From Candidatus Micrarchaeota archaeon (GTDB lineage Archaea > Micrarchaeota > Micrarchaeia > Anstonellales > Bilamarchaeaceae), in assembly GCA_964588555.1 (NCBI GenBank), contig CAZPPT010000002.1, positions 101,979-165,978 on the forward strand: DNA of 64,000 nt, given 5' to 3'. The position numbers and the translations under genes are program-made. The notes beneath the pieces were generated by a model. It saw nothing but the letters and a program-made list of their open reading frames with translations, was not told the DNA's origin and ran no database searches. The number at the start of each line of letters is the position of its first letter. Position 1 is the stretch's first letter. Shown here piece after piece: positions 1 through 61,372 of the stretch.

Positions 1-26
1 TTTCAGTCAAGGAATACGGCTCGCAC

Positions 27-449
27 GTGGACATGCTTGGTGCGGATATCCGCAGGATCAAAAAGGAAAACGAACGCGCACTTGCCGATCTTGAGCGTGC
101 GCAAGCCGAATACCAGTCAAAAATAAAAAAACAAGAGGCAGTAGACATCTTAAAGGCAGCACAGGAAATCGAAGACAAAAAGGGACTTCTTGAGGATATC
201 GCAATTTCGCTTGAGAGCCTTGAGCAATCATCGGAAGACATACAGCGCAAATTAGCAGTGCTTGCAAAGGAGGCCCAGCTTGTTGAACTACGGACAAGTA
301 CTGCAGGTGCGCAGATTACCTCGGGAATGGTGGAGAAAGAAAAGGAACTGATACAAACAGTCCAGCTTACGCGGCAGGAGGAGGCCGAATTCAAGCGCAA
401 GCGCGAGGAACTGCGGGATCTCATCAAAAAATTATGGGAGGAGGCATGA
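27..449 (+). CDS. coiled-coil hypothetical protein; may extend upstream of the window
   Basis: 140-aa ORF rich in K/E/L heptad-like sequence (LADLERAQAEYQSKIKKQEAVD). It sits directly upstream of, and co-oriented with, the pilus ATPase. Confidence 0.35.
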   Translation: MDMLGADIRRIKKENERALADLERAQAEYQSKIKKQEAVDILKAAQEIEDKKGLLEDIAISLESLEQSSEDIQRKLAVLAKEAQLVELRTSTAGAQITSGMVEKEKELIQTVQLTRQEEAEFKRKREELRDLIKKLWEEA

Positions 450-489
450 AGCAGTTTTAAAAAGAGGTTATGTATATAGGTAAACAACG

Positions 490-2337
490 GTGAAACCCAT
501 GGCAAAGGACCCAAAAGATAAAAACAAGAAAAAGAGTTCATCAATTAAGGAAAAAATACGCGAAAAGCTTAAGGAGACAGAAAACGAAGAGCCGACCCTT
601 GAAACCGTGCCTGAAGAGACCTCTCTTGAGGCCGCCACGCCTACTGAAGAACCAGTTATTGAGTCGCAACCGCAAGAGGAGTTTCCAGCCATGGAAGAAA
701 CTGTCGATGCCGAGCCTGCGGCTGAAAATTCACCACCAAGCGGCATGCCATCCGATAATCCGGAGGAACCGCCCGCACCGCATGTCGAAGAGGTGCCAGT
801 TGAGAAGTCGGAAGAACGGGCACGGCCTAGAATCCCAGTTCTTGCACAGTATTCATTTACTACTGAGGGGATCCCAGTACAGGTAAAGATAGTAAAGATA
901 GGCGAATTCGTGCCGCACTACGAGATCACCATGCCGTCTGTCGATGCATGGACAAGAAAGATGCTTGAAGGAAAGCTGCGTGGCGAACTGGTAAGCGAAG
1001 TAAAGCTTGACTTAAGCGAAATCCTTGACCCGAAAAGATACGACGAAGTAAAGGCAAAGTTCATGCAGGGTGCACGGCATATCATAGACCGAAACTTCAA
1101 GGAACAACTCCCTGACGAACATGCACGCCATGTGCTGTCCGTATATCTTATGCAGAACGCACTTGGGCTTGGCAAACTTGAGGGACTTCTTGCTGATGAA
1201 AACCTTGAGGAAATCGTCATCAACAACGCCCGGGAACAGGTTTGGGTGTACCACAAGAAAATCGGCTGGTGCAAGACGAACATATCACTTGAAAGCGAGG
1301 GCCAGGTGTATGATTATGCATCGATGATCGCACGAAAAATCGGCAGGCAGATCAACGTGCTTAACCCAACGCTTGATGCGCACCTCCCAAGCGGGGACCG
1401 TGTCAATGCAACGCTCTTTCCGATATCCCATTTTGGGAACACAATCACAATCAGAAAATTCTCAAAGAACCCCTGGACTATTACAAACCTCATACGGTCT
1501 TCGACGGTTTCTCCAGAAGCTGCGGCACTCATCTGGCTGTGCATGCAAAATGAGCTTTCGCTTCTTGTCGCAGGCGGTACTGGGAGCGGTAAGACTAGTT
1601 TCCTAAACGCAATGTCTGCATTCATCCCGCCAAACCACCGCATCATCAGCATTGAAGACACGCGCGAACTTACGCTCCCTAAATACCTGCACTGGGTACC
1701 GATGGTCACCCGTGAGGCTAACCCCGAAGGAAAGGGGGAGGTCACCATGCTCGACCTCCTCGTAAACGCATTACGGCAGCGTCCTGACCGGATCCTTGTC
1801 GGCGAAATCAGGCGCCAGCGGGAAGCTGAGATCCTTTTTGAAGCAATACACACCGGCCACTCCGTATATGCGACACTTCATGCGGATAATACAGAGCAGG
1901 CAATATCGCGCCTCACCAACCCGCCAATCAACATACCTCCACAGATGCTTGACGCAGTGTCAGGCGTCATCGTCACATTCAGGCACAGGAGGTTCAATAT
2001 CAGGCGGGTGCTTGAGATATCCGAAATGCTAAAACAGGGCAAGTTCAATTCCCTATACCGCTGGACGATCAAGGAATCCGGAAGCGGGTTTACTGATAAG
2101 ATAAAACAGGTTTCAAAAATGACCCGCCTTGCCGACCAGCTTTCTCTCTATGCGGGCATGGATGAACGGGAAATCGCAGATGATGTCGGTGAAAAAAGTT
2201 CAATACTTAAATGGATGGTTGACAACGATTATAGTGACGTAGACCAGGTCGGCCGCATCGTCTCGCACTATTACATGGACCCTGACTCCATTCTTGAGGC
2301 AGTCAAGAAAAACAGGCCATGGGATTTCAGTGAATAG
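490..2337 (+). CDS. type IV pilus / archaellum-type assembly ATPase (FlaI/TadA/VirB11 secretion-ATPase family) with acidic low-complexity N-terminus
   Basis: Walker A LLVAGGTGSGKTSFLNA, Asp/Glu boxes ISIEDTRELTLP and ILVGEIRRQREAE, His box HTGHSVYATLHADN. SD-like GGTGA lies upstream of the ATG. Confidence 0.85.
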   Translation: MKPMAKDPKDKNKKKSSSIKEKIREKLKETENEEPTLETVPEETSLEAATPTEEPVIESQPQEEFPAMEETVDAEPAAENSPPSGMPSDNPEEPPAPHVEEVPVEKSEERARPRIPVLAQYSFTTEGIPVQVKIVKIGEFVPHYEITMPSVDAWTRKMLEGKLRGELVSEVKLDLSEILDPKRYDEVKAKFMQGARHIIDRNFKEQLPDEHARHVLSVYLMQNALGLGKLEGLLADENLEEIVINNAREQVWVYHKKIGWCKTNISLESEGQVYDYASMIARKIGRQINVLNPTLDAHLPSGDRVNATLFPISHFGNTITIRKFSKNPWTITNLIRSSTVSPEAAALIWLCMQNELSLLVAGGTGSGKTSFLNAMSAFIPPNHRIISIEDTRELTLPKYLHWVPMVTREANPEGKGEVTMLDLLVNALRQRPDRILVGEIRRQREAEILFEAIHTGHSVYATLHADNTEQAISRLTNPPINIPPQMLDAVSGVIVTFRHRRFNIRRVLEISEMLKQGKFNSLYRWTIKESGSGFTDKIKQVSKMTRLADQLSLYAGMDEREIADDVGEKSSILKWMVDNDYSDVDQVGRIVSHYYMDPDSILEAVKKNRPWDFSE

Positions 2338-2338
2338 C

Positions 2339-3898
2339 ATGGAAGATTTTTACGCTGCACTTGACACTGCAAAGAGGATAGAAAAGAATGCGTTAGCCCG
2401 CAGTGAATTTTCCGAAAAAATCGAGATAGTAAAAACAATTGACCTTGAACCGCGGGAATTCGAGGACATGACGTATGCGGACCTCGTCAACATGTATGAG
2501 CGCGCGCAGAAGGTAATCAGCGCAACCAAGTCGTTTCAGTCCATGCCCACCGTAACCGCTGGATCAACCGTTCGCTCGGCAGAAGTCAAAAAAATAGACG
2601 TTGAAAGTAAGGTAAAACAAATAACAAATGAAAGCCTTGAAAAGGCGGAGGAATTAAGCCGCGAATTTGAGAAAAAGGCTGAAATCCCCGCACCCTCCAT
2701 AGCGCCACAGCCTGCACCTAAAAAGCCGATTGACGATTTAATGGACCTTGACCTTACGTTTGAAAAGGACACTGCCACCGCGCCGCAAAAAGAATCGGAA
2801 ATTATGTTTGAACGGGAGGCACCTGAGCTCCCAATGGAAAAGGAAGTGCTTCCTGCTGTTGAAATAGAGGAACGAAAAGAAGAAAAACGACCACGCATCA
2901 TGGAAGAGGCAGCCCCCATCGATGAAATGCCTGCGCCGTCCCACGTTAAGCCGATGCCGGGCATTCTTGCTGCAACCGAGGCAAAGCATGCAGAAGGCAA
3001 ATACAGCGAAATAGAGGGACTCCTTCGCCAGGAATTGGGGGGCGAGGGGGATGATGAAAAGATTAAGAAACGGATGCTCAGCCTTACAAAGGATCTTTTC
3101 AGGGAAAAAAGCACGACACAGCGCGAACAAATAAAGCTCCAGATAGTAGTCCTTAAAAACATGCTTGGCAAGTCTAAAAAGCCTCCGAAGGCACGTGCAC
3201 GGCAGGAACAAGATTATTCGGCAGACGTCTATACCACGCTTATGTCAACGCAGCGTATGGAGCTTTCATCTGCAAAGGATACGATACAGACGGAATTCAG
3301 TGAAAAGATAAGCGCTGCAAAGCACAGGTATTTTGATGCGATTCGGGAAGGGCAGGGGGACGACAGTGCGCTCCGTGCTGCATACGATGCGCTTGTAGGC
3401 GAGCTTAACGCCCTTGAGGAACGTGTTGGCGCAGTAACTGCCAGGACAGGCGGCCTGCTTGCGCAAAAACACAGTGCAGAGCTCAAGGGGCTTGGGGGAT
3501 CAGGGTCCCTCCCTACAAAAACCGCACGGGAAATCGAAAAGGCAATTGCCCAAATGAACGGACAATATATGGCTGATCTTGACAACCTAAAGGAAATGCT
3601 TTTCAAGCGTGTCGAATCACTTAAGGAAAGTGCGGCACAGGAAGTACAGGGTACGAAGGCACAAAAAAATACGGCTTCCCAACTAAACTCAGTCATATTT
3701 GAAATAAACGAAACCGACGAAGGCACGCTTCTTTATTACCTTCATTCTAAAAATCCCGCATATTACAAGAAATATGAGCGCCACCATGTATCGCGTGCCG
3801 AAGCAATCGCATACGCAAAAATACTCATGGCAAAGGAGCGCGGGCTCAATGACGCAAGCATACAAAAATATTTCGGGACAATAAATGAAGAAGCGTGA
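2339..3898 (+). CDS. acidic coiled-coil hypothetical protein (pilus-operon member)
   Basis: ORF 2294..3898. The internal Met at 2339 immediately follows the ATPase stop. The protein is E/K-rich with predicted long helices and no recognisable catalytic motif. Confidence 0.45.
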   Translation: MEDFYAALDTAKRIEKNALARSEFSEKIEIVKTIDLEPREFEDMTYADLVNMYERAQKVISATKSFQSMPTVTAGSTVRSAEVKKIDVESKVKQITNESLEKAEELSREFEKKAEIPAPSIAPQPAPKKPIDDLMDLDLTFEKDTATAPQKESEIMFEREAPELPMEKEVLPAVEIEERKEEKRPRIMEEAAPIDEMPAPSHVKPMPGILAATEAKHAEGKYSEIEGLLRQELGGEGDDEKIKKRMLSLTKDLFREKSTTQREQIKLQIVVLKNMLGKSKKPPKARARQEQDYSADVYTTLMSTQRMELSSAKDTIQTEFSEKISAAKHRYFDAIREGQGDDSALRAAYDALVGELNALEERVGAVTARTGGLLAQKHSAELKGLGGSGSLPTKTAREIEKAIAQMNGQYMADLDNLKEMLFKRVESLKESAAQEVQGTKAQKNTASQLNSVIFEINETDEGTLLYYLHSKNPAYYKKYERHHVSRAEAIAYAKILMAKERGLNDASIQKYFGTINEEA

Positions 3899-4773
3899 AA
3901 TATATGGATACCGACACAATAAAAAGCAGACGGAAGCGCGATGAGGCAAGGGGGCCGCTTACTGCCCTTGCGGAAGTGTTGTCGCCACGGTTTCCACTTC
4001 TTAAGAAGAAGCTCACCCTTGCAAACATCCATTATAGCCCAACCGTATTTCTCGAGCGTGTCCTTCTTTCAACCTTGTTTGTGTCCCTTGGGCTCCTTAT
4101 AGCAACTGCAATTTTTTTCCTCCAGACAAATACGTGGTTTGGATACCTGATAATACCGCTTATCGTGTATCCGATCGTTGTGTTCAAATACCTTATGCTT
4201 TACCCTGATGCACTCATCATAAAAAGAAGACGGGCAATCGATTATGAGCTCGTATTTGCAGGACGGCACATGGTCATCGCCCTTAAGTCGGGCATGCCGC
4301 TCTTTGACAGCCTTGTCGGCGTACGGAAAGGATATGGTGAAGTAAGTAAGGAATTTGACAAGATCGTTGAGATGGTGACGCTTGGAACCCCGCTTTCACA
4401 GGCAATACGGGAAGTTGCTGCAGTAAACCCGTCACAATATTTCGTGCGGATACTTATGCAGATCGCAAACTCACTTTCAAGCGGTGCGGATGTCGGCGAG
4501 TCGCTTGAAGTGGTGCTTAACCAGATATCCGAGGAGCAAAAAATTCAGCTTAAGGAATACGGGCAAAAACTGACGCCCATCGTCATGTTCTTCATGGTAT
4601 TTGGGATTATCATGCCCTCGATCGGCATCGTCCTTATTACCGTCATATTTTCCGTGCTTGGCGGCGGGAAGGTGACCTCCTCGATCCTTATCTTGATTGC
4701 GGCATTCATAACCATAACGCAGCTCCTCTTCGTCGGACTGATTGAAAGTTCAAGACCAAAATACCTTATGTGA
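3895..4773 (+). CDS. TadB/FlaJ N-half-like polytopic membrane protein (T2SS-F-like domain)
   Basis: Hydrophobic helices (LLSTLFVSLGLLIATAIFFL, IVMFFMVFGIIMPSIGIVLITVIF) flank a soluble domain. Stop/start overlap with neighbours suggests translational coupling. Start may be the ATG at 3904. Confidence 0.55.
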   Translation: MKYMDTDTIKSRRKRDEARGPLTALAEVLSPRFPLLKKKLTLANIHYSPTVFLERVLLSTLFVSLGLLIATAIFFLQTNTWFGYLIIPLIVYPIVVFKYLMLYPDALIIKRRRAIDYELVFAGRHMVIALKSGMPLFDSLVGVRKGYGEVSKEFDKIVEMVTLGTPLSQAIREVAAVNPSQYFVRILMQIANSLSSGADVGESLEVVLNQISEEQKIQLKEYGQKLTPIVMFFMVFGIIMPSIGIVLITVIFSVLGGGKVTSSILILIAAFITITQLLFVGLIESSRPKYLM

Positions 4774-5840
4774 GTCATATGGCACAAAAACTGTTGGAAG
4801 CGATTGGAAGGTTGTTTTACAACCGCGAGTATATACGAATGCTTGACTACCGGATAAATACTGCCGGCCTGCACCGTTCTGCGGAGGAGTTTGCAGGCGT
4901 GCTCATCCTTGTCACGCTCCTAGGCGGCCTTGCAGCCACGCTGTTTGTGTTAGGTTCAGGCCAATTATCAGGGTCGCTTCAGGGAGTTGCAAATTCCCTC
5001 ATACGCGGTTTTCCTTATGCGCTTCTCGCACTTATTGTGTTTATCGTAATGCTTGTCTTGTCCTATTTTGGGGTAATCGTACTCACCATGTCGGTGCTTG
5101 CAATACAAGGGGATGCGCGACGAAACTCGCTTGAGACCGCGCTTCCTGATTTTCTACTGCTTGTGTCCGCAAACATAAAGGCAGGCATGCCCCTTGACCA
5201 GGCAATGTACCATGCCGCAAAGCCCGAATACGGCCTTATGGCAATAGAAGTGCAGGACATCATCAAACGCTCATTTAGCGGGGAATCGCTTGAAAACTCC
5301 CTTGATATGCTTGCAGAACGGTTTGACTCGCGGATCTTCAAACGGACGATCCTTCTTATAAAGCAGGCATCCGCAACTGGCGGCGAGGTGGCAGCGGTAC
5401 TTGAGCGGACATCGCAGGAAGTAAGAAACACGCTTCTTATCAAAAAGGAAGTTGCCGCATCGCTTATCCTCTATGAAATTTTCATATTATTTGCAGCGAT
5501 CGCAGGGACGCCGTTCCTGTTTGCAGTGTCCGGAAAGCTTATCGAGGTGTTTGAGAAGACGCCGGTCATATCGACAATACCTCAAAGCACAAGCGGGTTT
5601 GCAGGCCAGCTGCCGGGGATCGGGTTTACCGGCGTTGTCATCAGTTCAACTGAGTTTTTCTACTTTACCATACTTACCATATTGATTACGTCGCTCTTTT
5701 CATCATTTATTGTGGGGATTATCCGCAAGGGTACCAAGAACGAAGGTATAAAATACTTCCCGTTCGTATTAGGTGCGTCCTATGTGATGTTTGCGCTTGT
5801 AAACCTAGGGCTTAATGCAGTATTTACAACGATATTATAG
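4770..5840 (+). CDS. TadC/FlaJ C-half-like polytopic membrane protein
   Basis: Second T2SS-F-like repeat with the same TM-soluble-TM architecture. It overlaps the upstream gene by 4 nt. Confidence 0.55.
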   Translation: MSHMAQKLLEAIGRLFYNREYIRMLDYRINTAGLHRSAEEFAGVLILVTLLGGLAATLFVLGSGQLSGSLQGVANSLIRGFPYALLALIVFIVMLVLSYFGVIVLTMSVLAIQGDARRNSLETALPDFLLLVSANIKAGMPLDQAMYHAAKPEYGLMAIEVQDIIKRSFSGESLENSLDMLAERFDSRIFKRTILLIKQASATGGEVAAVLERTSQEVRNTLLIKKEVAASLILYEIFILFAAIAGTPFLFAVSGKLIEVFEKTPVISTIPQSTSGFAGQLPGIGFTGVVISSTEFFYFTILTILITSLFSSFIVGIIRKGTKNEGIKYFPFVLGASYVMFALVNLGLNAVFTTIL

Positions 5841-5854
5841 TAAGAGGTGAAATA

Positions 5855-6454
5855 ATGGTTAGAAAAAAGAGCCGAAGCAAGGCAGCGGCTAAAAAAATAA
5901 AAACCACCGTGCGCGGTCAGGCAGCAATGGAATACCTGATGACATACGGGTGGGCAATATTGGTCATATTGATTGTACTTGCAGTACTTGCGTTCTACCT
6001 GCCCCAATTCTTACGGGCGCAGGACCAGTGTGCGTTTGCACAGCCTGGATTTACGTGCGGGGATGTACGGCCGTTTATACAAAACACAGGCAATACAGTA
6101 AACCTGCGAGCTTCCATATTTAATCAAAATGGCCAGGCAATACATATCCAAAGGGTACTCTGTACCGCTGATGCGCCAGGAAATGTGAATTCTGTCTGGG
6201 GCGAAGTGCCAGCAGAAGGAACAATCACGTCCGCACCATCTGTAACGACCCTAGACCCAGCAAGCGGAGCGCGCATGGAAGTAAATGTAAATTGTTACAG
6301 GGGCGGAAGCGGTACGAACCGTGGATCTGCGTTAAACCTCGCTAAAAACAATGAATTCAGAGGGTACCTATTTATCTGGTACAACTTTGGCAATGAAAAT
6401 CCAGCCCTAGTAACAAGGCAAGTTCAGGCAACCATAACAGGTACGGTAAACTAG
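5855..6454 (+). CDS. type IV pilin-like protein with class III (prepilin) signal peptide
   Basis: N-terminus MVRKKSRSKAAAKKIKTTVRG|QAAMEYLMTYGWAILVILIVL: basic stretch, G-Q cleavage motif, Glu at +5, hydrophobic helix. Strong SD GAGGTGA 8 nt upstream. Confidence 0.6.
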   Translation: MVRKKSRSKAAAKKIKTTVRGQAAMEYLMTYGWAILVILIVLAVLAFYLPQFLRAQDQCAFAQPGFTCGDVRPFIQNTGNTVNLRASIFNQNGQAIHIQRVLCTADAPGNVNSVWGEVPAEGTITSAPSVTTLDPASGARMEVNVNCYRGGSGTNRGSALNLAKNNEFRGYLFIWYNFGNENPALVTRQVQATITGTVN

Positions 6455-6500
6455 TTTTTTTCTTTTTTTATTTTTCTTCTTTTTTATTGTTTTATCTTTA
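6455..6500 (+). terminator. T-rich intrinsic terminator region after the pilin gene
   Basis: tttttttcttttttatttttcttcttttttattgtttt follows the stop directly. Oligo-T tracts are the usual archaeal termination signal. Confidence 0.4.
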
Positions 6501-6729: not shown

Positions 6730-6939
6730 GTGGTGAGTCTTACCTTTGGCGCTGCACCATTTATACTAACTGATTCTGAAAAACGCCGCGGCATCTTGAC
6801 TGGTGAGACGCTTGGCGAAGTCTTACGGCTTTATTTCTTTGAAAGGCGTACGGTGAGGGATATCGCTGCCATATTCGGCGTGTCGCATATGACCGTATAC
6901 CGTGCGGTTACTGATAAACGGATAGCAGCAATCATGTAA
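6730..6939 (+). CDS. small helix-turn-helix protein
   Basis: C-terminal RRTVRDIAAIFGVSHMTVYRAV resembles an HTH (resolvase/sigma-region-4/transposase-type) recognition helix. The start codon is uncertain. Confidence 0.3.
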   Translation: MVSLTFGAAPFILTDSEKRRGILTGETLGEVLRLYFFERRTVRDIAAIFGVSHMTVYRAVTDKRIAAIM

Positions 6940-6942
6940 GGG

Positions 6943-7464
6943 GTGGTTATGATGAATAAAGGGGTAATACGAAAAGGAGAGGTAGCAAGAGTAACACGAC
7001 CAGCAAGGCAAATGGAGCCTATGGTTGACCATATATGCAACGACGCATCAGTTGAAACGCGGGCGGCAGTTACGGAACTTCGCGCCTTGTTTAGGCAAGC
7101 GGAAGAAAGGCAAGTAGAGAAGAAATGTATTCCACGCGTTGCATTTGACAACGATCCTGAGGAACGGCAGGTAGAGGTACCAACAGCAAGTGCATGTGGC
7201 GCTTACTCGCAAGCACTGCAAAAGATTGAGGCAATACTAAAGCCAGGTCATAAGCTTCATCGTGATGCCATAGTGGCAGTAGCTGCCCATAACCTGCTTT
7301 CCACAAGCAGCATGGTCGAAATCGAGTTTGCCGAGCGAACGGTTGATGCGGACGGGGTGCGCGTTGCACGAATGACGGCAGACCACATCGCAACCCTCCT
7401 TCTTAAAAAAGTAGAGGCGGAAGTGCCAAGAAGCAAAAATGGGGGATTTGACGTGGTGGTGTAA
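6943..7464 (+). CDS. hypothetical protein
   Basis: 173-aa ORF with no recognised motifs. Its GC is higher than that of the flanks. Confidence 0.3.
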   Translation: MVMMNKGVIRKGEVARVTRPARQMEPMVDHICNDASVETRAAVTELRALFRQAEERQVEKKCIPRVAFDNDPEERQVEVPTASACGAYSQALQKIEAILKPGHKLHRDAIVAVAAHNLLSTSSMVEIEFAERTVDADGVRVARMTADHIATLLLKKVEAEVPRSKNGGFDVVV

Positions 7465-7547: not shown

Positions 7548-7775
7548 ATGAAAAATGCAAACATAAATGTAAGGATTGAAGATTCGCTTTTTAAAGAGGT
7601 TAAGGAATACGAATTAGATATCTCAGAAGTGGTCCGTGCTGCACTTATTAGTGAAATAGAAAAGAAAAGGGTAGATAGAATAATGAGAGCACTTGTGAAG
7701 GCAAGCGAAGCAGTAAAAAAGATGAAGGTGAAACAAATTGTAGCAGACGTCAGGGAGATGCGTGAAACGCGATGA
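7548..7775 (+). CDS. antitoxin-like small protein (putative VapB, ribbon-helix-helix-like)
   Basis: 75 aa, charged and helical. It overlaps the downstream PIN gene by 4 nt (ATGA). Confidence 0.45.
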   Translation: MKNANINVRIEDSLFKEVKEYELDISEVVRAALISEIEKKRVDRIMRALVKASEAVKKMKVKQIVADVREMRETR

Positions 7776-8149
7776 AAATCTACGACGCTTCCGCGTTCTT
7801 TGAGCGGATTTTAAAAAAAGAGATAGAACCTGATGCATTTGTTATAGACCTTACGGTCTATGAAATGGGGAACATTACCCTAAAACATGAAAGGAAATTA
7901 AAAACGATAAGTAGGGAAGAGGCCATATCTATACTTACGATCCTAAGTGAATGGTCGCCAGTTATTTTTATCCGCCCGGAGGAAACTCCATTTATATATC
8001 AAACTGCTTCTAATCTTGAACTTACGTTCTACGATGCCGCATACATTTTTTTCTCGCAAAAATTTAATGCAACTTTGGAGACATGTGATAAAACGCTGTA
8101 TGAAAGGGCAAAAAAGCATTGCAGAATTGTTTTAATGAAAATGGAATAA
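7772..8149 (+). CDS. PIN-domain nuclease (VapC-type toxin)
   Basis: MKIYDASAF (N-terminal acidic D), TFYDAAYIF and ETCDKTL fit the conserved PIN acidic residues. Confidence 0.6.
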   Translation: MKIYDASAFFERILKKEIEPDAFVIDLTVYEMGNITLKHERKLKTISREEAISILTILSEWSPVIFIRPEETPFIYQTASNLELTFYDAAYIFFSQKFNATLETCDKTLYERAKKHCRIVLMKME

Positions 8150-8155
8150 CACAAA

Positions 8156-9385
8156 TCAGCTTCCATACATCTTACTTTTTTCAATAAGATTAAGAATAAT
8201 TGGCATAACATCGCTTCCTTTTAAGTGGCCTAAGCCACCCTGCATACAAGAAACTTCATCAAATTTTTTCACTGTATCGACTCGCTCATTATCTCCGTAA
8301 AGAAGGATCGGAACTTCGTGTCCACTGTGAGCTTTACGGATGCAGGGAGTCGAGTGATCGCCGGTAACGATAAGGTACGCACCACTCTTCATTAGGATTG
8401 GGAGGAGTTCTTTATCAATACGCTCTAGCATTTTTACTTTTCCCTTAAAATCGCCGTCATGGCCGCAGCTGTCGCATGCCTTAACGTGGAGGAAGACAAG
8501 ATCGTGATCATTAAGCGCCTTAACGACCGCTTCGCCTTTCGCTCTCAGATCAGTGTTCATCGTTCCCGTTGCGCCTGGAACATCAATGACGTGCATCCCA
8601 ACATAACGTGCGATTCCCTTATAGAGCGCACCGCCTGCAACACAGGCAGCGTTTAGTTCAAATCGATCACGTATTGAGTCTACCTTCTTATAGGTTCCCG
8701 CCCCGCGCAATAAAACAATATTTGCCTTAAGTTGCCTTTTCGCCTCGCGTGATTTATTGAGAGGGGCACTGTTAAGAAGCGAAAAAACTCGAGACGTATA
8801 ATCATTAATAATTTGAGCGGTCCGTAATGCATTTTTTTCCTCGTTCTCGTCAACATTTGAGAAGGGAATGCTTGCAAGAATTTCATTTCCGTGTCCATGC
8901 GGATCAGTATCAGTGATGTGCGCACTCAAACGAGGTCCACGCAATACGACAATGCCACGGTGCTCAACCGTGCTCTTGAAAAATACGTCTACATTTCCAA
9001 GTTTCATGCTTGCATATCGTTCGAGAGCCTTGCCAACCGCACTGTCAATGCGCCCTGCCCTCCTGTCAAGAATCGTTTTTCCATCATCCATTACAGTGGC
9101 AAAATTTGCGCGAAACGCAATGTCCCCTTCGCGTAAGTCAAAACCGACGCCAAGTGCCTCAAGAGGGCCTCGCCCCGGATAGTAAGTATGCGGGTCGTAT
9201 CCAAATAGTTGCAAGTGTGAAACGTCGCTTCCAGGCACTACGCCATTTGAAATGGTAGAAACCAGGCCAGTAATGCCCTCTTTTGCCAATGTATCAAAGT
9301 TTGGCTTTTTTGCAGCCTGTAACGGTGTTTTTGGTGTTGGGAGGTCACCTAAGCCATCAATGATAAAGAGGATTGCCTTTTTCAT
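8156..9385 (-). CDS. apgM: 2,3-bisphosphoglycerate-independent phosphoglycerate mutase, archaeal type
   Basis: MKKAILFIIDGLGD N-terminus, LIVTGDHSTPC and CDSCGHDGDF metal-site motifs. ORF listed as 8156..9448; the internal Met at 9385 was chosen as start. Confidence 0.8.
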   Translation of the reverse strand: MKKAILFIIDGLGDLPTPKTPLQAAKKPNFDTLAKEGITGLVSTISNGVVPGSDVSHLQLFGYDPHTYYPGRGPLEALGVGFDLREGDIAFRANFATVMDDGKTILDRRAGRIDSAVGKALERYASMKLGNVDVFFKSTVEHRGIVVLRGPRLSAHITDTDPHGHGNEILASIPFSNVDENEEKNALRTAQIINDYTSRVFSLLNSAPLNKSREAKRQLKANIVLLRGAGTYKKVDSIRDRFELNAACVAGGALYKGIARYVGMHVIDVPGATGTMNTDLRAKGEAVVKALNDHDLVFLHVKACDSCGHDGDFKGKVKMLERIDKELLPILMKSGAYLIVTGDHSTPCIRKAHSGHEVPILLYGDNERVDTVKKFDEVSCMQGGLGHLKGSDVMPIILNLIEKSKMYGS

Positions 9386-9496
9386 GAATGGAATGATTAA
9401 AATATACTTAAATAACTTTCCATAAATTTTCCTTTTGTCTTTAAGCAAGTTAGGACGTGTAACGATAACTATTTAAAGTAAGAAAGTAAGATTATA

Positions 9497-9790
9497 TTGG
9501 TGATGGTAATGTCAAATATAGTAATAACACATATGTCGTCAAAAGGCCAAGTAGTTATTCCACAGGATATTCGGAAGGAGATACACGCAGAAGAAGGTAC
9601 TGCGTTTGCCGTGTTTGGAAGCAAAGACACAATACTTCTTAAGAAGATTCATAAACCAAACAAAGAGGAACTCAAGAAGGACTGGGAACGGCTTGTTGAA
9701 GAAGGAAATAAAAGAGTAAAGGAACTTGGTATAAAGGAAACGGATGTCGCAAAAATCATTCACCGCGGACGCGGGATTAAATATGATTAA
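9497..9790 (+). CDS. AbrB/SpoVT-family (swapped-hairpin) antitoxin-like protein
   Basis: KGQVVIPQDIRKEI is typical of the AbrB/MazE-like fold. It overlaps the downstream PIN gene. Confidence 0.55.
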   Translation: MVMVMSNIVITHMSSKGQVVIPQDIRKEIHAEEGTAFAVFGSKDTILLKKIHKPNKEELKKDWERLVEEGNKRVKELGIKETDVAKIIHRGRGIKYD

Positions 9791-10106
9791 GATTTTTCTT
9801 GATACAAATGTATTGGTATCCGCTACCTTTTGGAAGGGTAGCGCCTATATCCTAAGAGATTTCAATGCAACTGAAGAAAAGGCAGACGAATACATTCAAA
9901 AATTACTTGAATTTCTGGAAGTAGTTTCACCGACTGAGTATTTCGATATTATAAAAAACGATCCTTCTGATAACAAAATACTTGCAGGGGCTGTTAAATC
10001 TAAATCTGATTTTATTGTTTCCTACGATCGTAAACATGTTTTGGCTCTAAAAAATTTTAAAGGAATATGTATCGTAACGCCGGAAGAGGTTCTTGAAAAG
10101 ATATAA
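9783..10106 (+). CDS. PIN-domain protein (VapC-like toxin)
   Basis: MIKIFLDTNVLVSA N-terminal PIN motif, and SYDRKHV near the C-terminus. ORF listed from 9744; the internal Met at 9783 is preferred. Confidence 0.55.
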   Translation: MIKIFLDTNVLVSATFWKGSAYILRDFNATEEKADEYIQKLLEFLEVVSPTEYFDIIKNDPSDNKILAGAVKSKSDFIVSYDRKHVLALKNFKGICIVTPEEVLEKI

Positions 10107-11392: not shown

Positions 11393-11944
11393 TTACTGGT
11401 ACACGAACACGTCCATAACTGCAAGCTGTTCGCGGTCAATTTCATCATATGCGCCGCTGACAGCAGGCTTGATAACCGTAATGACACGGCGTACGCGTGC
11501 AATGTTCCTGTTATTTCGGTTAATGGATTGGATGTTCTCCCCGACCCGCAGTACGACTGCTTCACGGCTTAGGGGATCCGTTTCCTGCAACGTCACTTCG
11601 GCAGTCATAAAATAAGGGGTTGCAAGCTTGCTTCTGACATCTTCAGGCGCAAGGCTAATTGCACATTCGATCTTATCGCGATCAAGGCGGCGGTCTTCCC
11701 AGCTTACAGCAAAGCCAAGCTGGGCCATTGCAGCGCAGTCCGCGGGATTTTGACCCGAGGGCAGGTAGCCCGGGGTAAGAAGTGCATCGCTTATACGGAT
11801 TGCCTCCTTTGTAAGGTCGCCACTCTGCACATCCAGGGAGGTACGAAGGCTCTGCCAATAGGAAAGAAGTGCAAGTAGTGCAAGGATAAAAATAACCGTT
11901 GCGATGATCGCGTCAAAACTAAAATATTGTCCCTTGTACATACG
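11393..11944 (-). CDS. pilin-like protein with class III signal peptide
   Basis: MRMYKG|QYFSFDAIIATVIFILALLALL when started at the internal Met. ORF listed to 12025. Confidence 0.45.
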   Translation of the reverse strand, partial: RMYKGQYFSFDAIIATVIFILALLALLSYWQSLRTSLDVQSGDLTKEAIRISDALLTPGYLPSGQNPADCAAMAQLGFAVSWEDRRLDRDKIECAISLAPEDVRSKLATPYFMTAEVTLQETDPLSREAVVLRVGENIQSINRNNRNIARVRRVITVIKPAVSGAYDEIDREQLAVMDVFVYQ

Positions 11945-11951
11945 CATAAGT

Positions 11952-12449
11952 TCACCTTGGTTGCTCAACATATACGGTGGTTCCGTCATTATAGAAAACA
12001 AGCCGATTTGAACAACGGACGCCACCTATGGCCTTGTCACTGGCCAGAACCCCATCGCCTTCAATGCACCCCGGGGAAGCGGGCGGAGGCTCGTCAAATT
12101 GGTAATTATATGTCGCAAGCGGATACGCGATGGTTATGGGACCGTACGTCCCTTGCCAGTTAAACAAAAGCCTCCCATTTTGGGGTTGGAACTCAACCGT
12201 ATACGGCCTTCCTTCAAGATTGACCCTAAATGTCATGTTGGCGTGGAACCCCCTGCCGCTTCGCACGGCAAGATTAGCCGCATCTGCAAAACCCGCGCCG
12301 GTCTCCTGTGCAAGAATCCCTTCCCTTCGCTGGACTTCCTGCGCCTGAATAAATGCGGTCACTGAGAATGCGACGATAAGCACAATAAGAAAGACGCTTG
12401 CATAGATGAAAAATTCCGTCGCGACTTGTCCACGTACCATAGTAATCAA
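11952..12449 (-). CDS. pilin-like protein with class III signal peptide
   Basis: MITMVRG|QVATEFFIYASVFLIVLIVAF. Confidence 0.5.
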   Translation of the reverse strand: MITMVRGQVATEFFIYASVFLIVLIVAFSVTAFIQAQEVQRREGILAQETGAGFADAANLAVRSGRGFHANMTFRVNLEGRPYTVEFQPQNGRLLFNWQGTYGPITIAYPLATYNYQFDEPPPASPGCIEGDGVLASDKAIGGVRCSNRLVFYNDGTTVYVEQPR

Positions 12450-12868
12450 CTTTTGATAATCACCGGTTGACCCGCTGATTGGCTATCTACTTCAAGCACA
12501 ATGCGGGTAAGCCCGATGCTGCCCGTAATTAAGCGGGGCTCTACCTTTGCAAAAAAAGGCGATGATGCTTCGTATACCCCGGTTGACGTCCTGAGTGTAA
12601 GCGTGACCTCATTATCAGCAATGCGAAGCGATTCGGTATTGCTTGGAAGCGCAACTGAAAGCACCCGTTGTGCATACGGGCCCTGCGTATACACCTCGTT
12701 TATGCTGTCCGCAATGGTCTTTGAGACTGCGTTTGCCTGTGCACGTGCGGCATCCTCATACCCATATTGTGAAACCGTAAGCATAAGGATTATGATTGGC
12801 ACGGTGAATGCAAGAAGTATGCCAAACGTAACAAGAAGCTCAAGCGATATCTGGCCGCGCATGGTCAT
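12446..12868 (-). CDS. pilin-like protein with class III signal peptide
   Basis: MTMRG|QISLELLVTFGILLAF, the classic QxSxE prepilin motif. ORF listed to 12898. Confidence 0.55.
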   Translation of the reverse strand: MTMRGQISLELLVTFGILLAFTVPIIILMLTVSQYGYEDAARAQANAVSKTIADSINEVYTQGPYAQRVLSVALPSNTESLRIADNEVTLTLRTSTGVYEASSPFFAKVEPRLITGSIGLTRIVLEVDSQSAGQPVIIKS

Positions 12869-14490
12869 CCGCACTCCGCCCCGACTCCCGGCACACACGC
12901 AAGTGTGTCACGTTGTGGGCCAAGAAAATCGTCTTGTGCCCCTGTCCCAAGCCTGAAATGCCCAACAAGCGATGGCTGGGAACACATCTCAAAATCCTTG
13001 CAGCCAGGCATTCCACGGACTTTAGTGCCCTGAATGCCGGTAAATAGTTCGCGCGCCGCCCTGCTTACGTCATCAGGATAGGTGGTTTGAGGCGATGAAA
13101 TGACAGCGGAATGCCCGCCTATATACGAGCCAACCATGAATGTCTCAATGCCATAATTTGAGCTTGAGCGCGTGAAACTGTTGCTAAAGAGGCGCTGGAA
13201 ATAGGAGGGAGAACGTTCGTTTCCGGTGTAATAGCTGCATGCGGCAAAATCGCGCAGGTTTTCAATGTTAAAAAGGCGCCCGTTTGCCGAAAGCTTGTTT
13301 TCAGGCGTGGCAAGCACTTCACGCGGGCTATAACGGGTTACAAAAAGCGCACAGTGTGAGGCGTTCTGGTTTCCTTCAAGGTCAGGGCACAGTGCGCCAT
13401 GGTCGCTTGTAAAGCCGGATATTACGACAAACGGCTTGTCAGTCTGCTCAAAGCCGGCACTCAGCGAGGCGACGCAGAGCGAGTTATACTGGATTGCGTT
13501 AAATGTATCTTCCTCATCAGGACTTGTAGGGCATGCCGATGCGACAAGCCGTGGTTTTTCAACAAGAATATACGCGCCAAACTCAGTGTGGTCAACTGCG
13601 TTATTAGTTCGTGCACCTATATTAAGGATGTCACCATAAGTGCCAAAGAGGATGTATTTTTCACGGTCAATCGGATCGATTGCGCCAGGATTATTCGCAA
13701 CCTCGTCCGCTGAAACCAAAAGCCCATAAAACCACCCTTGGCCTTCGGCCCCGCCAAATACCTGTGCCGGGACAAGGTCGCTGTCCTTTGAATAGGGGGA
13801 ATAAAAGAAGAACTGTTTTTCTATGTTTCCTGACTTTTGGGTTTTCCATGCCCGCGTTATTGCCGGATCAATAAGGCCGGAAATAGGAAGGTCGCCACTG
13901 ACGGCATAATCCCGCTCAATGAATGAAATGCGGTTTTTCTCCTCAAGGATAAGATGGAGGTTGAACGAATAGCTTACGTTTTCACGCGTGTTTTGGAACA
14001 CGTCAAAATTTGAGATTGAATAATTGCTTACCTGCATGCCGGTTTGGGAGATGGACGTGTTTAACCGGTCTATCCAAGCGCGAAACGTTGCAGACTGCCT
14101 CATGGAGGGAAGCTGTGCCAGCGGATTTTCAAAGTGGGTGCCTTCGGTAGTACCATGTGAAAAAAGGTCGTACATGATTGCCCGTATCTGAGTGCGCTCG
14201 GCAGGCGAATCCGCACCTCCGCCTGAACGCACAGGGTTGTCAACTGAATAACCGTTAAGCGTTTTCAATGCGTCGTAAAGCGCAATGTCGCTGAATTGCC
14301 GTATCTCTTCATCGGTTATTTGCATTGCGATAAGCTCAAGGTTTGACGTCCGAAAGCGGTCTGCATAGCGACGTTCGCTTTCCTGTAATGCGCTTGTCCA
14401 CACGGAAAGCGAGACGAGGATATACCCAAGAATAACAAATACGATGATAACAAAGAAAAAACCCTTTTTAGATGAGATGTTGCCGTGCAT
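12865..14490 (-). CDS. large N-terminally anchored hypothetical protein inside the pilin operon (possible pilus-associated adhesin/assembly protein)
   Basis: 541 aa with N-terminal TM FFFVIIVFVILGYILVSLSVW and no enzymatic motifs. Flanked by pilin-like genes on both sides. Confidence 0.4.
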   Translation of the reverse strand: MHGNISSKKGFFFVIIVFVILGYILVSLSVWTSALQESERRYADRFRTSNLELIAMQITDEEIRQFSDIALYDALKTLNGYSVDNPVRSGGGADSPAERTQIRAIMYDLFSHGTTEGTHFENPLAQLPSMRQSATFRAWIDRLNTSISQTGMQVSNYSISNFDVFQNTRENVSYSFNLHLILEEKNRISFIERDYAVSGDLPISGLIDPAITRAWKTQKSGNIEKQFFFYSPYSKDSDLVPAQVFGGAEGQGWFYGLLVSADEVANNPGAIDPIDREKYILFGTYGDILNIGARTNNAVDHTEFGAYILVEKPRLVASACPTSPDEEDTFNAIQYNSLCVASLSAGFEQTDKPFVVISGFTSDHGALCPDLEGNQNASHCALFVTRYSPREVLATPENKLSANGRLFNIENLRDFAACSYYTGNERSPSYFQRLFSNSFTRSSSNYGIETFMVGSYIGGHSAVISSPQTTYPDDVSRAARELFTGIQGTKVRGMPGCKDFEMCSQPSLVGHFRLGTGAQDDFLGPQRDTLACVPGVGAECG

Positions 14491-14498
14491 ATGATCAA

Positions 14499-15116
14499 CT
14501 ACGTAAAGACGATTAATTCGACAACCGCCGTCTCTGCCGCCGCACCCTCATCAACGATTTGCGGCAGGTCGCATAGCGGAATTCCTGCACCGCCTATTCC
14601 CTGGCACGTGTTGTGCCGATAGGGATTCTCAGGCGGTTTGACTGCCTCATTATACTGGAACACGAGTATATGTGCCGAAGCGCTCAGGCGGTCCTTGTGC
14701 GGTTTATGGGTTCGGAATGCCGGAGTCTCATCGGCAGTTGAATAAACTTTAGTCGGGATACCGCTTTGGTCAAGAATATTTACCGTGTACCCATATTGCG
14801 GCGGAATGAGCTGATCAAGGAAAAACTTAAATTCCCTATCCGGATCCTGTGCCCTGAACGTAAGATACTCAAGAAACGTTGCGTCCCCGACCGCGTCGCA
14901 ATAACTCGGGGTCCCCGGGTAAAGGGCTCGGTCGCAATAGGTCTGGGAAAGCGAGACGAGCGAATCCTTTGCAAGAAAATGCGCCTGCGTGAGCGTATTA
15001 TAATACGCTGAAGGGATGCTTGAGAAAAAAATCATGGTATATATTGCCGCAAGGGAAAGCGTGAACGCTACAAATGCATCAAGTGAGAAGATAAACCCCT
15101 TTTGTGATTTCTGCAT
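14499..15116 (-). CDS. pilin-like protein with class III-type signal peptide
   Basis: MQKSQKG|FIFSLDAFVAFTLSLAAIYTMIFF. First gene of the minus-strand pilin operon. Confidence 0.45.
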   Translation of the reverse strand: MQKSQKGFIFSLDAFVAFTLSLAAIYTMIFFSSIPSAYYNTLTQAHFLAKDSLVSLSQTYCDRALYPGTPSYCDAVGDATFLEYLTFRAQDPDREFKFFLDQLIPPQYGYTVNILDQSGIPTKVYSTADETPAFRTHKPHKDRLSASAHILVFQYNEAVKPPENPYRHNTCQGIGGAGIPLCDLPQIVDEGAAAETAVVELIVFT

Positions 15117-27342: not shown

Positions 27343-27472
27343 TCCGTTAAAAGTGAGTATTCACTTCTTTTTGGAGGCGTTATAATAAAAAACAACGCCA
27401 AACAAAGGTTTTAACCCATCTACAACAATCATCAATCACAAAGAATATAAATTTTGAAGCATTGATGGAACT

Positions 27473-41100: not shown

Positions 41101-41143
41101 TTATCATATTTATACCCTTTAAATATTTAATCATATGTTACGG

Positions 41144-59421: not shown

Positions 59422-59434
59422 GTCAATCAGCAAA

Positions 59435-61312: not shown

Positions 61313-61372
61313 ATATATTTAGATGCGATATGTTTATAAACTCATATTTTATCACATTCATCAACTAAATAA

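What the first reader, a model, noticed from the sequence alone, without database searches (positions are those of the whole stretch)
27..6500. Epd/Tad-like type IV pilus operon with a split FlaJ/TadC and two unexplained coiled-coil proteins
Six co-directional, overlapping genes: coiled-coil protein, FlaI/TadA ATPase with an unusual acidic ~150-aa N-terminal extension, 520-aa acidic coiled-coil protein, two half-size T2SS-F membrane proteins, and a pilin with KG|Q....E signal. The split platform protein overlaps by 4 nt, like translational coupling. That matches methanococcal EpdJ/EpdK or bacterial TadB/TadC rather than the single-chain archaeal FlaJ. The two coiled-coil proteins have no obvious counterpart in described archaeal pilus systems.
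Basis: partly seen in the sequence, partly recalled or inferred. Interest (0 to 1): 0.5.

Follow-up and report, generated by a model that had tools for sequence, protein, structure and literature searches.

The report
Micrarchaeota type IV pilus operon
This is a type IV pilus gene cluster of a tiny symbiotic archaeon (Micrarchaeota), kept in the same order across the phylum; its membrane platform is really encoded as two genes, and it carries two lineage-specific cytoplasmic proteins whose role nobody has described.

Summary
The window comes from a Micrarchaeota (DPANN) genome.

The operon reads: FlaI/GspE2-like ATPase (499-2337), a 519-aa unknown protein "ORF3" (2339-3898), an N-half platform protein (3904-4773), a C-half platform protein (4779-5840), a pilin with an RG|QAAMEY class III signal (5855-6454), then a poly-T tract.

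The platform split is not a frameshift. All 75 related loci that hold both halves have a stop codon between them, followed by an SD-like motif and an ATG.

- The first "140-aa coiled-coil protein" is the C-terminal 148 codons of a 562-aa gene cut by the window edge. That gene encodes a winged helix followed by long helices.
- The "4-nt overlaps" come from reading a GTG inside an SD-like GTGA as the start. The ATG starts lie 4-5 nt further on.
- ORF3 is not a plain coiled coil. It has a conserved N-module, a disordered linker, a three-helix bundle and a conserved C-domain.

ORF3-position genes range from 71 to 1334 aa across the phylum. The family has only 133 clusters among 1.84 billion representatives and no Pfam, NCBIfam or PDB relative.

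Two-TadC archaeal pilus loci are already known, so the core is ordinary. The accessory proteins are the new part.

The parts
1..449 (+). C-terminal 148 codons of the 562-aa 'ORF1' protein (P0109), which is an N-terminal winged helix followed by about 490 aa of long helices. The gene starts about 1.24 kb upstream of the window.
450..498 (+). Intergenic spacer with AT-rich TATA-like elements (TTTTAAAAA at 454-462, TATATA at 473-478) and the SD-like GGTGA at 489-493. It may hold an internal promoter for the ATPase gene.
   Evidence: Read directly from the sequence. Promoter function is inferred and was not tested.
499..2337 (+). Secretion/pilus-assembly ATPase of the FlaI/GspE2/TadA superfamily, 612 aa. 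It has an N-terminal low-complexity acidic, Pro-rich leader of about 110 aa.
   Evidence: Pfam T2SSE 3e-40. NCBIfam FlaI 286 bits and TadA 203 bits, both below cutoff. Nearest PDB chains are A. fulgidus GspE2 2OAP (232 bits), FlaI (210) and CpaF (185). Walker A GGTGSGKT, the Asp box, Walker B and the His box are visible in the translation.
2339..3898 (+). 'ORF3': a 519-aa cytoplasmic protein of a Micrarchaeota-restricted family. It has a conserved N-module (about 1-65), a conserved helix (81-112), a disordered acidic/Pro linker (113-210), a conserved KKKMLELTKxLFKEK motif, a three-helix bundle (293-437) and a conserved C-domain (455-515).
3904..4773 (+). Platform protein, N-half (TadB/EpdJ-like). 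289 aa with one T2SSF domain, at least 3 TM segments and pI 9.6.
   Evidence: Pfam T2SSF 1e-17. Matches FlaJ profile positions 5-249 of 555. TM segments. GTGA-N5-ATG at the start.
4779..5840 (+). Platform protein, C-half (TadC/EpdK-like). 353 aa with one T2SSF domain and about 5 TM segments.
   Evidence: Pfam T2SSF 9e-14. Matches UpsF profile positions 275-466 of 484. 25% identical to the N-half, E 1e-5. Junction conserved in 75 of 75 loci.
5855..6454 (+). Pilin precursor, 199 aa. Class III signal peptide MVRKK...VRG|QAAMEYLMTYGWAILVILIVLAVLAF, with a strong SD (GAGGTGA) 4 nt upstream.
   Evidence: The N-terminus [KR]G|QA[AV]MEYL[MI]TYG is conserved in 55 related loci. A pilin homologue follows the C-half within 400 nt in 55 of 69 loci. 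One N-terminal hydrophobic segment. SD read.
6455..6500 (+). T-rich tract (TTTTTTTCTTTTTTTATTTTTCTTCTTTTTTATTGTTTTATCTTT), a likely archaeal poly-T transcription terminator that ends the operon.
   Evidence: Read directly from the sequence. Function is inferred.
11393..15116 (-). Five consecutive prepilin-like genes (205, 541, 140, 162 and 192 aa) with KG|F, KKG|F, RG|Q..E, RG|Q..E and KG|Q N-termini. They are candidate minor pilins or pilus-associated proteins for the same machine.
   Evidence: Translations. Weak DUF7287 and Class_IIIsignal hits only. The cluster is not syntenic with the operon in other loci, so the association is tentative.

Best explanation
The region is the phylum-wide conserved type IV pilus (T4P) assembly operon of a Micrarchaeota (DPANN) archaeon.

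Shown:
- A hexameric-type FlaI/GspE2-like ATPase gene is followed by two separately translated single-T2SSF-domain membrane proteins. These correspond to the N and C halves of a FlaJ/PilC platform, and I infer that they pair as a heterodimer as proposed for TadB/TadC and EpdJ/EpdK.
- A pilin gene follows, with a class III signal peptide cleaved after RG. It is processed by a prepilin peptidase that is encoded elsewhere.
- Each cistron has its own GTGA-type Shine-Dalgarno-like motif 4-5 nt before an ATG, and stop codons lie inside or next to these motifs. The five genes are therefore probably translated in a coupled manner from one transcript that ends at a poly-T tract.

Inferred:
- ORF3 sits between the ATPase and platform genes in nearly all relatives. 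It is most likely a dedicated cytoplasmic subunit or adaptor of this machine.
- Its conserved N-terminal module (the only part left in the 71-aa Micrarchaeum versions) would dock on the ATPase or on the cytoplasmic face of the platform.
- Its variable linker or bundle and its conserved C-domain would reach a second partner. This is functionally comparable to FlaX/FlaH/ArlCDE of the archaellum or PilM/N/O of bacterial T4P, without homology to them.
- ORF1 (winged helix plus long helices) and the divergently transcribed 4x winged-helix protein upstream are most likely a regulatory or scaffolding pair attached to the operon. They are less tightly linked than ORF3.
- The pili probably serve attachment to host cells or surfaces.
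For: Taxon and synteny:
- The ATPase is 55-80% identical to 80 loci, almost all titled Micrarchaeota or its subgroups.
- The order ORF1-ATPase-ORF3-N half-C half-pilin recurs across them.

Core parts:
- T2SSE and T2SSF domains.
- The two platform proteins match N and C halves of single-chain platforms and are paralogous.
- ATPase relatives in the PDB are GspE2, FlaI and CpaF.
- The pilin N-terminus is conserved in 55 loci.

Split platform:
- 75 of 75 loci have a stop between the halves (TAG 35, TGA 31, TAA 9). The halves share a frame in 36 loci and differ in 39.
- A conserved GGTG-N5-8-ATG follows the stop.

Operon signals:
- GTGA-N4/5-ATG occurs five times on the + strand of 1-6500, each time at a gene start.
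- A poly-T tract follows the pilin stop.

ORF3:
- 99 full-length homologues with conserved N, middle and C modules.
- A confident helical-bundle model.
- The N-module HMM hits 64-65 ORFs among 9915, all lying between the ATPase and platform genes.
- Positional equivalents of 71 to 1334 aa share the N-module by eye.
- No TM segment.

ORF1:
- 145 homologues with a nearly invariant wHTH.
- Directly upstream of the ATPase in 51 of 68 loci, and in 50 of those the divergent 4x wHTH gene sits next to it.

Literature:
- Two tadC-like genes in archaeal clade 1 and clade 2 T4P loci (PMC4858521).
- EpdJ and EpdK are both essential, and Epd pilins are cleaved at KG|Q (PMC4371748).
- A DPANN T4P island drawn with TadB and TadC (PMC6393860).
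Against: - No prepilin peptidase was found among the ORFs of at least 150 aa in the window that were scanned.
- The pilin does not reach any Pfam pilin or Class_IIIsignal model.
- The ATPase is below the NCBIfam cutoffs for both FlaI and TadA.
- There are no expression or interaction data. The role of ORF3 rests only on gene position and conservation.
- ORF1 is absent from the 10-kb upstream flank in 11 of 68 loci and displaced in 6, so it is not an obligatory cis-encoded part.
- An AT-rich TATA-like spacer separates ORF1 from the ATPase gene.
- The N-module HMM did not reach the Fermentimicrarchaeum and Micrarchaeum versions at E <= 1e-3. Their similarity is by eye only.
Confidence: 0.75

Rival explanations
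1. ORF1 and the divergent 4x winged-helix protein are ordinary DNA-binding transcription regulators of the pilus operon, and ORF3 is a regulator as well. None of them is a physical part of the machine.
For: The ORF1 N-domain is a winged helix of the Z-alpha/ArsR/MarR type. The upstream protein gives TrmB and TFIIE-alpha-like hits. A divergent arrangement next to an operon is typical of local regulators. Makarova et al. list many transcription regulators linked to archaeal T4P loci (PMC4858521). ORF1 is missing from 11 of 68 loci.
Against: About 490 aa of long helices behind a single winged helix is unusual for a simple repressor. ORF3 has no DNA-binding domain, sits 1 nt after the ATPase stop and 5 nt before the platform start, and its N-module occurs only at that position. 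That pattern fits a stoichiometric partner better.
Confidence: 0.3
2. The machine is used mainly for DNA uptake or another transport task, not for adhesive pili. The winged-helix proteins would handle incoming nucleic acid.
For: A transposon screen for genes essential for transformation in M. maripaludis names EpdJ, EpdK and EpdL (PMC10133366, seen in the search listing only and not read; that Epd pili take part in transformation is from my own knowledge). Five winged-helix domains are encoded next to the operon in 50 of 68 loci. From general knowledge, DPANN archaea lack many biosynthetic pathways.
Against: No ComEC/ComEA-type channel or DNA-processing gene was seen in the operon or its flanks. 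The idea rests on analogy only.
Confidence: 0.12
3. ORF1 and ORF3 have nothing to do with pili. They would be, for example, cytoskeletal or chromosome-organisation proteins that happen to be neighbours.
For: Automatic annotations call ORF1 homologues 'chromosome segregation ATPase', 'SbcC' or 'Smc'. Weak EzrA/ATG17-type coiled-coil hits appear. ORF1 can be separated from the operon.
Against: Those names reflect coiled-coil composition only. No ATPase head domain is present. ORF3 is wedged inside the operon in about 65 loci across large sequence divergence (31-49% identity) and is never found elsewhere. ORF1 stays within 10 kb of the ATPase gene even when inverted.
Confidence: 0.08
4. The two platform ORFs are one gene broken by a sequencing or assembly frameshift, or one gene read through a recoded stop codon.
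For: In 36 of 75 loci the two halves are in the same frame, separated by a single stop.
Against: All 75 loci, from independent assemblies, have the stop. All three stop codons occur, 39 loci have the halves in different frames, and an SD-like GGTG plus ATG follows the stop. An independent Logan assembly has identical sequence.
Confidence: 0.01

Closest known systems
Epd pilus system of Methanococcus maripaludis (EpdL ATPase, EpdJ and EpdK platform paralogues, EppA peptidase, Epd pilins)
   Same: One ATPase is co-encoded with two PilC/TadC-like membrane proteins. In Epd both are needed for piliation (PMC4371748). The pilins are cleaved after [KR]G with Q at +1 (KG|Q in Epd, RG|Q here).
   Different: No EppA is present in the window. 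Here the pilin gene lies in the same operon. ORF3 lies between the ATPase and platform genes, and the ORF1/4x wHTH pair lies upstream. No counterpart of these was found in what I read of the Epd literature (passages of PMC4371748 and PMC4858521). Direct sequence comparison with EpdJ/K/L could not be run.
Bacterial Tad/Flp pilus (TadA/CpaF, TadB, TadC)
   Same: The platform is made of two single-T2SSF-domain proteins. The ATPase aligns with CpaF at 185 bits and with the TadA model at 203 bits.
   Different: The ATPase is below the TadA model cutoff of 373 bits. No TadZ, secretin RcpA, TadD/G or short Flp pilin was seen in the operon or its flanks. The organism is archaeal, and the nearest solved relatives are the archaeal GspE2 and FlaI.
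Archaellum motor core FlaI/FlaJ with cytoplasmic accessories FlaX or FlaC/D/E and FlaH
   Same: The best NCBIfam hit of the ATPase is FlaI. The N-half matches the FlaJ N-half. Non-enzymatic helical cytoplasmic proteins are encoded beside the ATPase, as FlaX is.
   Different: FlaJ is a single chain. No FlaH, FlaF/G or archaellins are present. The FlaI score of 286 is below the cutoff of 550. ORF1 and ORF3 show no sequence or fold relation to any solved structure beyond generic helices.
Euryarchaeal clade 2 and halobacterial subclade 4C T4P loci (Makarova, Koonin and Albers 2016)
   Same: Many clade 2 loci have two tadC-like genes. Subclade 4C has a unique intracellular coiled-coil protein (arCOG07564) that was predicted to be regulatory (PMC4858521).
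   Different: Homology of ORF1 or ORF3 to arCOG07564 could not be tested because no arCOG library is available. The terms 'Micrarchae' and 'ARMAN' do not occur in the main text of that census.
DPANN T4P 'dark matter' island (Makarova, Wolf and Koonin 2019, Fig. 2A)
   Same: A DPANN locus drawn with a FlaI-type ATPase, TadB and TadC, and unannotated signal-peptide proteins interpreted as pilins (PMC6393860).
   Different: In the passages I read, that paper treats the unknown genes as pilins. It does not describe a conserved cytoplasmic protein between the ATPase and platform genes, or a wHTH plus long-helix partner.

Membership tests
Archaeal type IV pilus (T4P) assembly system | VirB11/FlaI-family secretion ATPase with Walker A/B, Asp and His boxes | tested here: met
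   Pfam T2SSE 3e-40. GspE2, FlaI and CpaF are the top PDB hits. The motifs are visible in the translation.
Archaeal type IV pilus (T4P) assembly system | FlaJ/TadC/PilC-type polytopic platform protein with T2SSF domain(s) | tested here: met
   Two proteins each carry one T2SSF domain, and they cover the N and C halves of FlaJ/UpsF.
Archaeal type IV pilus (T4P) assembly system | Pilin with a class III signal peptide: a short basic leader, cleavage after [KR][GA], then a hydrophobic helix | tested here: met
   MVRKK...VRG|QAAMEYLMTYGWAILVILIVLAVLAF. The motif is conserved in 55 loci. It was judged from the sequence pattern. The Pfam Class_IIIsignal model was not reached.
Archaeal type IV pilus (T4P) assembly system | Prepilin peptidase (PibD/FlaK/EppA) in the genome | tested here: inconclusive
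   None was found among the ORFs of at least 150 aa in the window that were scanned against Pfam. The rest of the genome was not available.
Epd-type pilus (Methanococcus) | Two co-encoded PilC/TadC paralogues together with one ATPase | tested here: met
   The feature is defined in PMC4371748 and PMC4858521.
Epd-type pilus (Methanococcus) | Pilins of the DUF361/Class_IIIsignal type processed by EppA (Q at +1) | tested here: inconclusive
   Q at +1 is present. PF04021 gave no hit for the operon pilin. No EppA is in the window.
Epd-type pilus (Methanococcus) | ATPase and platform proteins orthologous to EpdL/EpdJ/EpdK (clade 1 of Makarova 2016) | not testable with these tools
   No Epd sequences or arCOG profiles could be retrieved, so no phylogeny was made.
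Bacterial Tad/Flp pilus | TadA equivalog ATPase | tested here: not met
   TIGR03819 scored 203 bits against a cutoff of 373.
Bacterial Tad/Flp pilus | TadZ, RcpA secretin and Flp-type short pilin | tested here: not met
   No such domains appear in the operon or its flanks. The pilin precursor is 199 aa.
Archaellum | FlaI equivalog, single-chain FlaJ, FlaH, FlaF/G and archaellins | tested here: not met
   The FlaI model scored 286 bits against a cutoff of 550. The platform is split. No FlaH, FlaF/G or archaellin hits were found.
SMC/SbcC-type 'chromosome segregation ATPase' (automatic names of ORF1 homologues) | ABC-type ATPase head domains flanking the coiled coil | tested here: not met
   No SMC_N or AAA hit was found. 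The N-terminus is a winged helix and the C-terminus is a helix.

The most novel reading that the evidence does not exclude
ORF3 defines a previously undescribed, Micrarchaeota-wide cytoplasmic component of the type IV pilus machine. A small N-terminal docking module and a C-terminal domain would be joined by a spacer that evolution has stretched from nothing (71-aa proteins) to more than 1000 residues of disordered sequence. Together with the winged-helix-plus-long-helix protein ORF1, it would form a lineage-specific cytoplasmic scaffold that positions or gates the ATPase. That would be an analogue of FlaX/ArlCDE or PilMNO invented independently in DPANN archaea.
Probability: 0.3. Interest if true: 0.6.

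Novelty: new variant of a known kind. Interest (0 to 1): 0.4.

Why it matters
Micrarchaeota are tiny, host-dependent archaea. From general knowledge, their surface filaments are prime candidates for host attachment.

This work shows that one pilus operon with a fixed gene order is kept across the phylum, and that its platform is truly two proteins. That gives a firm basis for annotating these genomes, where the two accessory genes are mostly unnamed or called 'hypothetical', and some ORF1 homologues are mislabelled 'chromosome segregation ATPase'.

The two accessory families are concrete candidates for the missing cytoplasmic parts of non-archaellum archaeal pilus machines, which are still poorly known. 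The extreme length variation of ORF3 around fixed end modules is an unusual design that could be tested directly.

Tried and rejected
- Word-indexed homology search with the 148-aa ORF1 fragment found nothing. The full-length L002 homologue was needed as query.
- Fetching the window's own 166-kb contig failed. Only Logan contigs of 13.9 and 23.8 kb were returned.
- Pfam, NCBIfam and PDB sequence searches gave no meaningful hit for ORF1, ORF3 or the pilin.
- The afdb50 fold library was not available.
- Stop-codon readthrough or recoding at the platform junction was considered because 36 loci have both halves in one frame. It was rejected because all three stops occur, 39 loci differ in frame, and an SD plus ATG follows the stop.
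- No prepilin peptidase was found in the window.
- The five-gene prepilin cluster at 11.4-15.1 kb is not linked to the operon in other genomes.
- The sigma-70 promoter scanner was not used because it does not apply to archaea.
- Rfam found nothing in the window.

Full report
**What is there**

The + strand of 1-6500 carries six consecutive ORFs. G+C content is 45-51% over 1-6500 and falls to 38-43% in places downstream.

Pfam and NCBIfam assign the following:
- The second ORF is a T2SSE secretion ATPase (3e-40). Its best NCBIfam model is archaellum FlaI at 286 bits, below the 550 cutoff. The TadA model scores 203 bits, below 373.
- The fourth and fifth ORFs each carry one T2SSF domain. They match the N-half of FlaJ (profile positions 5-249 of 555) and the C-half of UpsF (275-466 of 484).
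- The first, third and sixth ORFs match no family.

The ATPase is 55-80% identical to 80 loci in the species-level genome collection, almost all titled Micrarchaeota or its subgroups. The window is therefore from a DPANN archaeon of that phylum.

**Corrections to the observation**

*First ORF.* It has no stop upstream in the window. Protein P0109 (562 aa), found with a full-length homologue as query, ends with exactly the window's translation. A Logan contig from the same sample holds the whole gene. So the window contains only its last 148 codons.

*Start codons.* Every one of the five following genes has GTGA followed by 4-5 nt and then ATG, at 490, 2330, 3895, 4770 and 5847. These are the only five matches on the + strand of 1-6500. 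About one would be expected from the window-wide rate.

Relatives show the same layout at the platform junction...RPKYL[IM]-stop-GGTG-N5-8-ATG. Homology of the C-half to relatives begins at residue 4-6 of the GTG version in most loci.

The likely genes are therefore 499-2337, 2339-3898, 3904-4773, 4779-5840 and 5855-6454. The gaps between them are 1, 5, 5 and 14 nt. A 46-nt T-rich tract follows.

*ATPase leader.* The low-complexity acidic, Pro-rich leader is about 110 aa here. It varies from none to about 125 aa in relatives, and only a basic tip (MPKD..IKEKIKEKL) recurs.

**Is the split platform real?**

Yes. In all 75 related loci that contain both halves, a stop separates them (TAG 35, TGA 31, TAA 9). 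The halves share a frame in 36 loci and differ in 39, and each C-half has its own SD-like motif and ATG. An independent assembly of the same organism gives identical sequence.

The halves are distant paralogues, 25% identical with E 1e-5. Each has a cytoplasmic T2SSF domain flanked by TM segments. This is the TadB/TadC or EpdJ/EpdK arrangement.

The arrangement is already known in archaea:
- Makarova et al. report two tadC-like genes in clade 1 (Methanococci) and in many clade 2 euryarchaeal loci (PMC4858521).
- EpdJ and EpdK are both essential for piliation (PMC4371748).
- A DPANN island with TadB and TadC has been drawn (PMC6393860).

**The pilin**

The 199-aa product starts MVRKKSRSKAAAKKIKTTVRG|QAAMEYLMTYGWAILVILIVLAVLAF. 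The mature N-terminus [KR]G|QA[AV]MEYL[MI]TYG is almost invariant in 55 related loci. A homologue follows the C-half within 400 nt in 55 of 69 loci.

Q at +1 matches the KG|Q sites of Epd pilins. No Pfam pilin model is reached and there is no PDB relative.

**ORF3 (2339-3898)**

It has 99 homologues at 31-50% identity, most covering the full length. Those that carry an organism name are Micrarchaeota 'hypothetical' proteins.

The alignment shows these modules:
- a conserved N-module (about 1-65);
- a conserved helix;
- a hypervariable acidic/Pro linker;
- a nearly invariant KKKMLELTKxLFKEK...LKNML motif;
- a helical region;
- a highly conserved C-domain (EINETDEGTLLYYLHSKDPEYYKKYERK...).

A profile of the family finds only 133 clusters among 1.84 billion representatives. 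The family is therefore narrow, and the profile is not dragged along by coiled-coil composition.

An HMM of the N-module alone, iterated on all 9915 ORFs of the 81 loci, hits 64-65 ORFs. All of them lie between the ATPase and platform genes.

In more distant Micrarchaeota the gene at that position varies greatly in size:
- 71 aa in Micrarchaeum-like loci;
- about 210 aa in Fermentimicrarchaeum;
- 474 aa in L053;
- 1029-1334 aa, with huge P/Q/E/A-rich disordered cores, in others.

By eye these share the N-module, and the giant forms share a related C-terminal WLYEIY..GG motif. The HMM did not reach the shortest forms, so that last step is inference.

**ORF1 and its neighbour**

The ORF1 family has 145 hits of about 560-600 aa. 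It has a nearly invariant 70-aa N-terminus and a conserved C-terminal helix.

Upstream and divergent lies a 457-aa protein with about four winged-helix repeats, giving TrmB and TFIIE-alpha-like hits.

Of 68 loci with enough upstream DNA:
- 51 have ORF1 directly upstream of the ATPase gene, 50 of them with the divergent partner;
- 6 have the pair elsewhere within 10 kb;
- 11 have none.

A 49-nt AT-rich spacer with TATA-like elements separates ORF1 from the ATPase gene in the window. ORF1 is thus linked to the operon, but less strictly than ORF3.

**Mechanism**

Shown: a T4P core (ATPase, two-part platform, pilin) that is tightly packed, has per-cistron SD motifs, and is conserved across a phylum.

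Inferred: the ATPase powers insertion of processed pilin into a filament through a heterodimeric platform. ORF3 would be a cytoplasmic subunit whose N-module docks on the ATPase or platform. ORF1 with the 4x wHTH protein would regulate or scaffold the system. The pili would mediate attachment.

Rivals are pure regulators, a DNA-uptake role, bystander genes, and a frameshift artefact. They are weighed in the rival section, and the frameshift artefact is excluded.

**Comparison and novelty**

The core is a new member of the known two-TadC archaeal T4P type. I could not test orthology to Epd because no reference sequences or arCOG profiles were available.

ORF3 and ORF1 have no relative in Pfam, NCBIfam or the PDB, and I found no description of them in the papers searched. 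I rate the whole as a new variant of a known kind, of moderate interest.

Noticed in passing
window 11393-15116 (- strand): Five consecutive genes whose products start with class III signal-like motifs (MQKSQKG|FIFSLDAF, KKG|FFFVIIVF, MRG|QISLELL, VRG|QVATEFF, YKG|QYFSFDAI). They are a probable minor-pilin or pilus-associated cluster 5 kb from the operon. One has a sub-threshold DUF7287 hit.
   Followed up: partly
window 6730-7464 (+ strand): Directly after the operon terminator lies a 69-aa HTH protein (Sigma70_r4/HTH_23-like, 5e-06), followed 3 nt later by a 173-aa protein with no family. Their function is unknown, and they were not seen next to the operon in other loci.
   Followed up: no
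window 7548-8149 and 9503-10106 (+ strand): Two likely toxin-antitoxin pairs: a CcdA-like 75-aa protein with a weak PIN 125-aa protein, and a MazE-like 95-aa protein with a PIN_3 120-aa protein. They flank a phosphoglycerate mutase gene (8156-9448, - strand).
   Followed up: partly
window 35931-44458 (- strand): Three large consecutive ORFs (1183, 554 and 1104 aa) with no Pfam hit at E <= 0.001. Large unannotated proteins of this kind are typical of DPANN genomes. They may be surface proteins.
   Followed up: no
window 24514-31029 (- strand): A complete bacterial-type UvrA-UvrB-UvrC nucleotide excision repair cluster in this small archaeal genome.
   Followed up: no
window 58129-62620 (- strand): Three more consecutive ORFs (467, 625 and 415 aa) without any Pfam family.
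   Followed up: no
L083 1245-4946 (upstream of the window in the same organism): The MCM helicase gene carries an intein (Intein_splicing plus LAGLIDADG_3 domains) according to the precomputed Pfam hits.
   Followed up: no
L057 11500-14586, L064 7468-11469, L067 11522-14983: The ORF3-position genes in these Micrarchaeota encode 1029-1334-aa proteins made almost entirely of P/Q/E/A/K-rich low-complexity sequence between short conserved ends. Some contain long internal repeats (for example, the block 'GEALLQGQERQPARVLPRKLQEPAAGDEELPEQEEQGQQPEQEGRE' occurs more than once in L067).
   Followed up: partly
L004, L007, L012, L032, L046 and others (upstream flanks): In 11 of 68 related loci no ORF1 homologue or 4x winged-helix gene is detectable within 10 kb upstream of the ATPase gene, although ORF3 and the rest of the operon are present. 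What replaces them was not examined.
   Followed up: no
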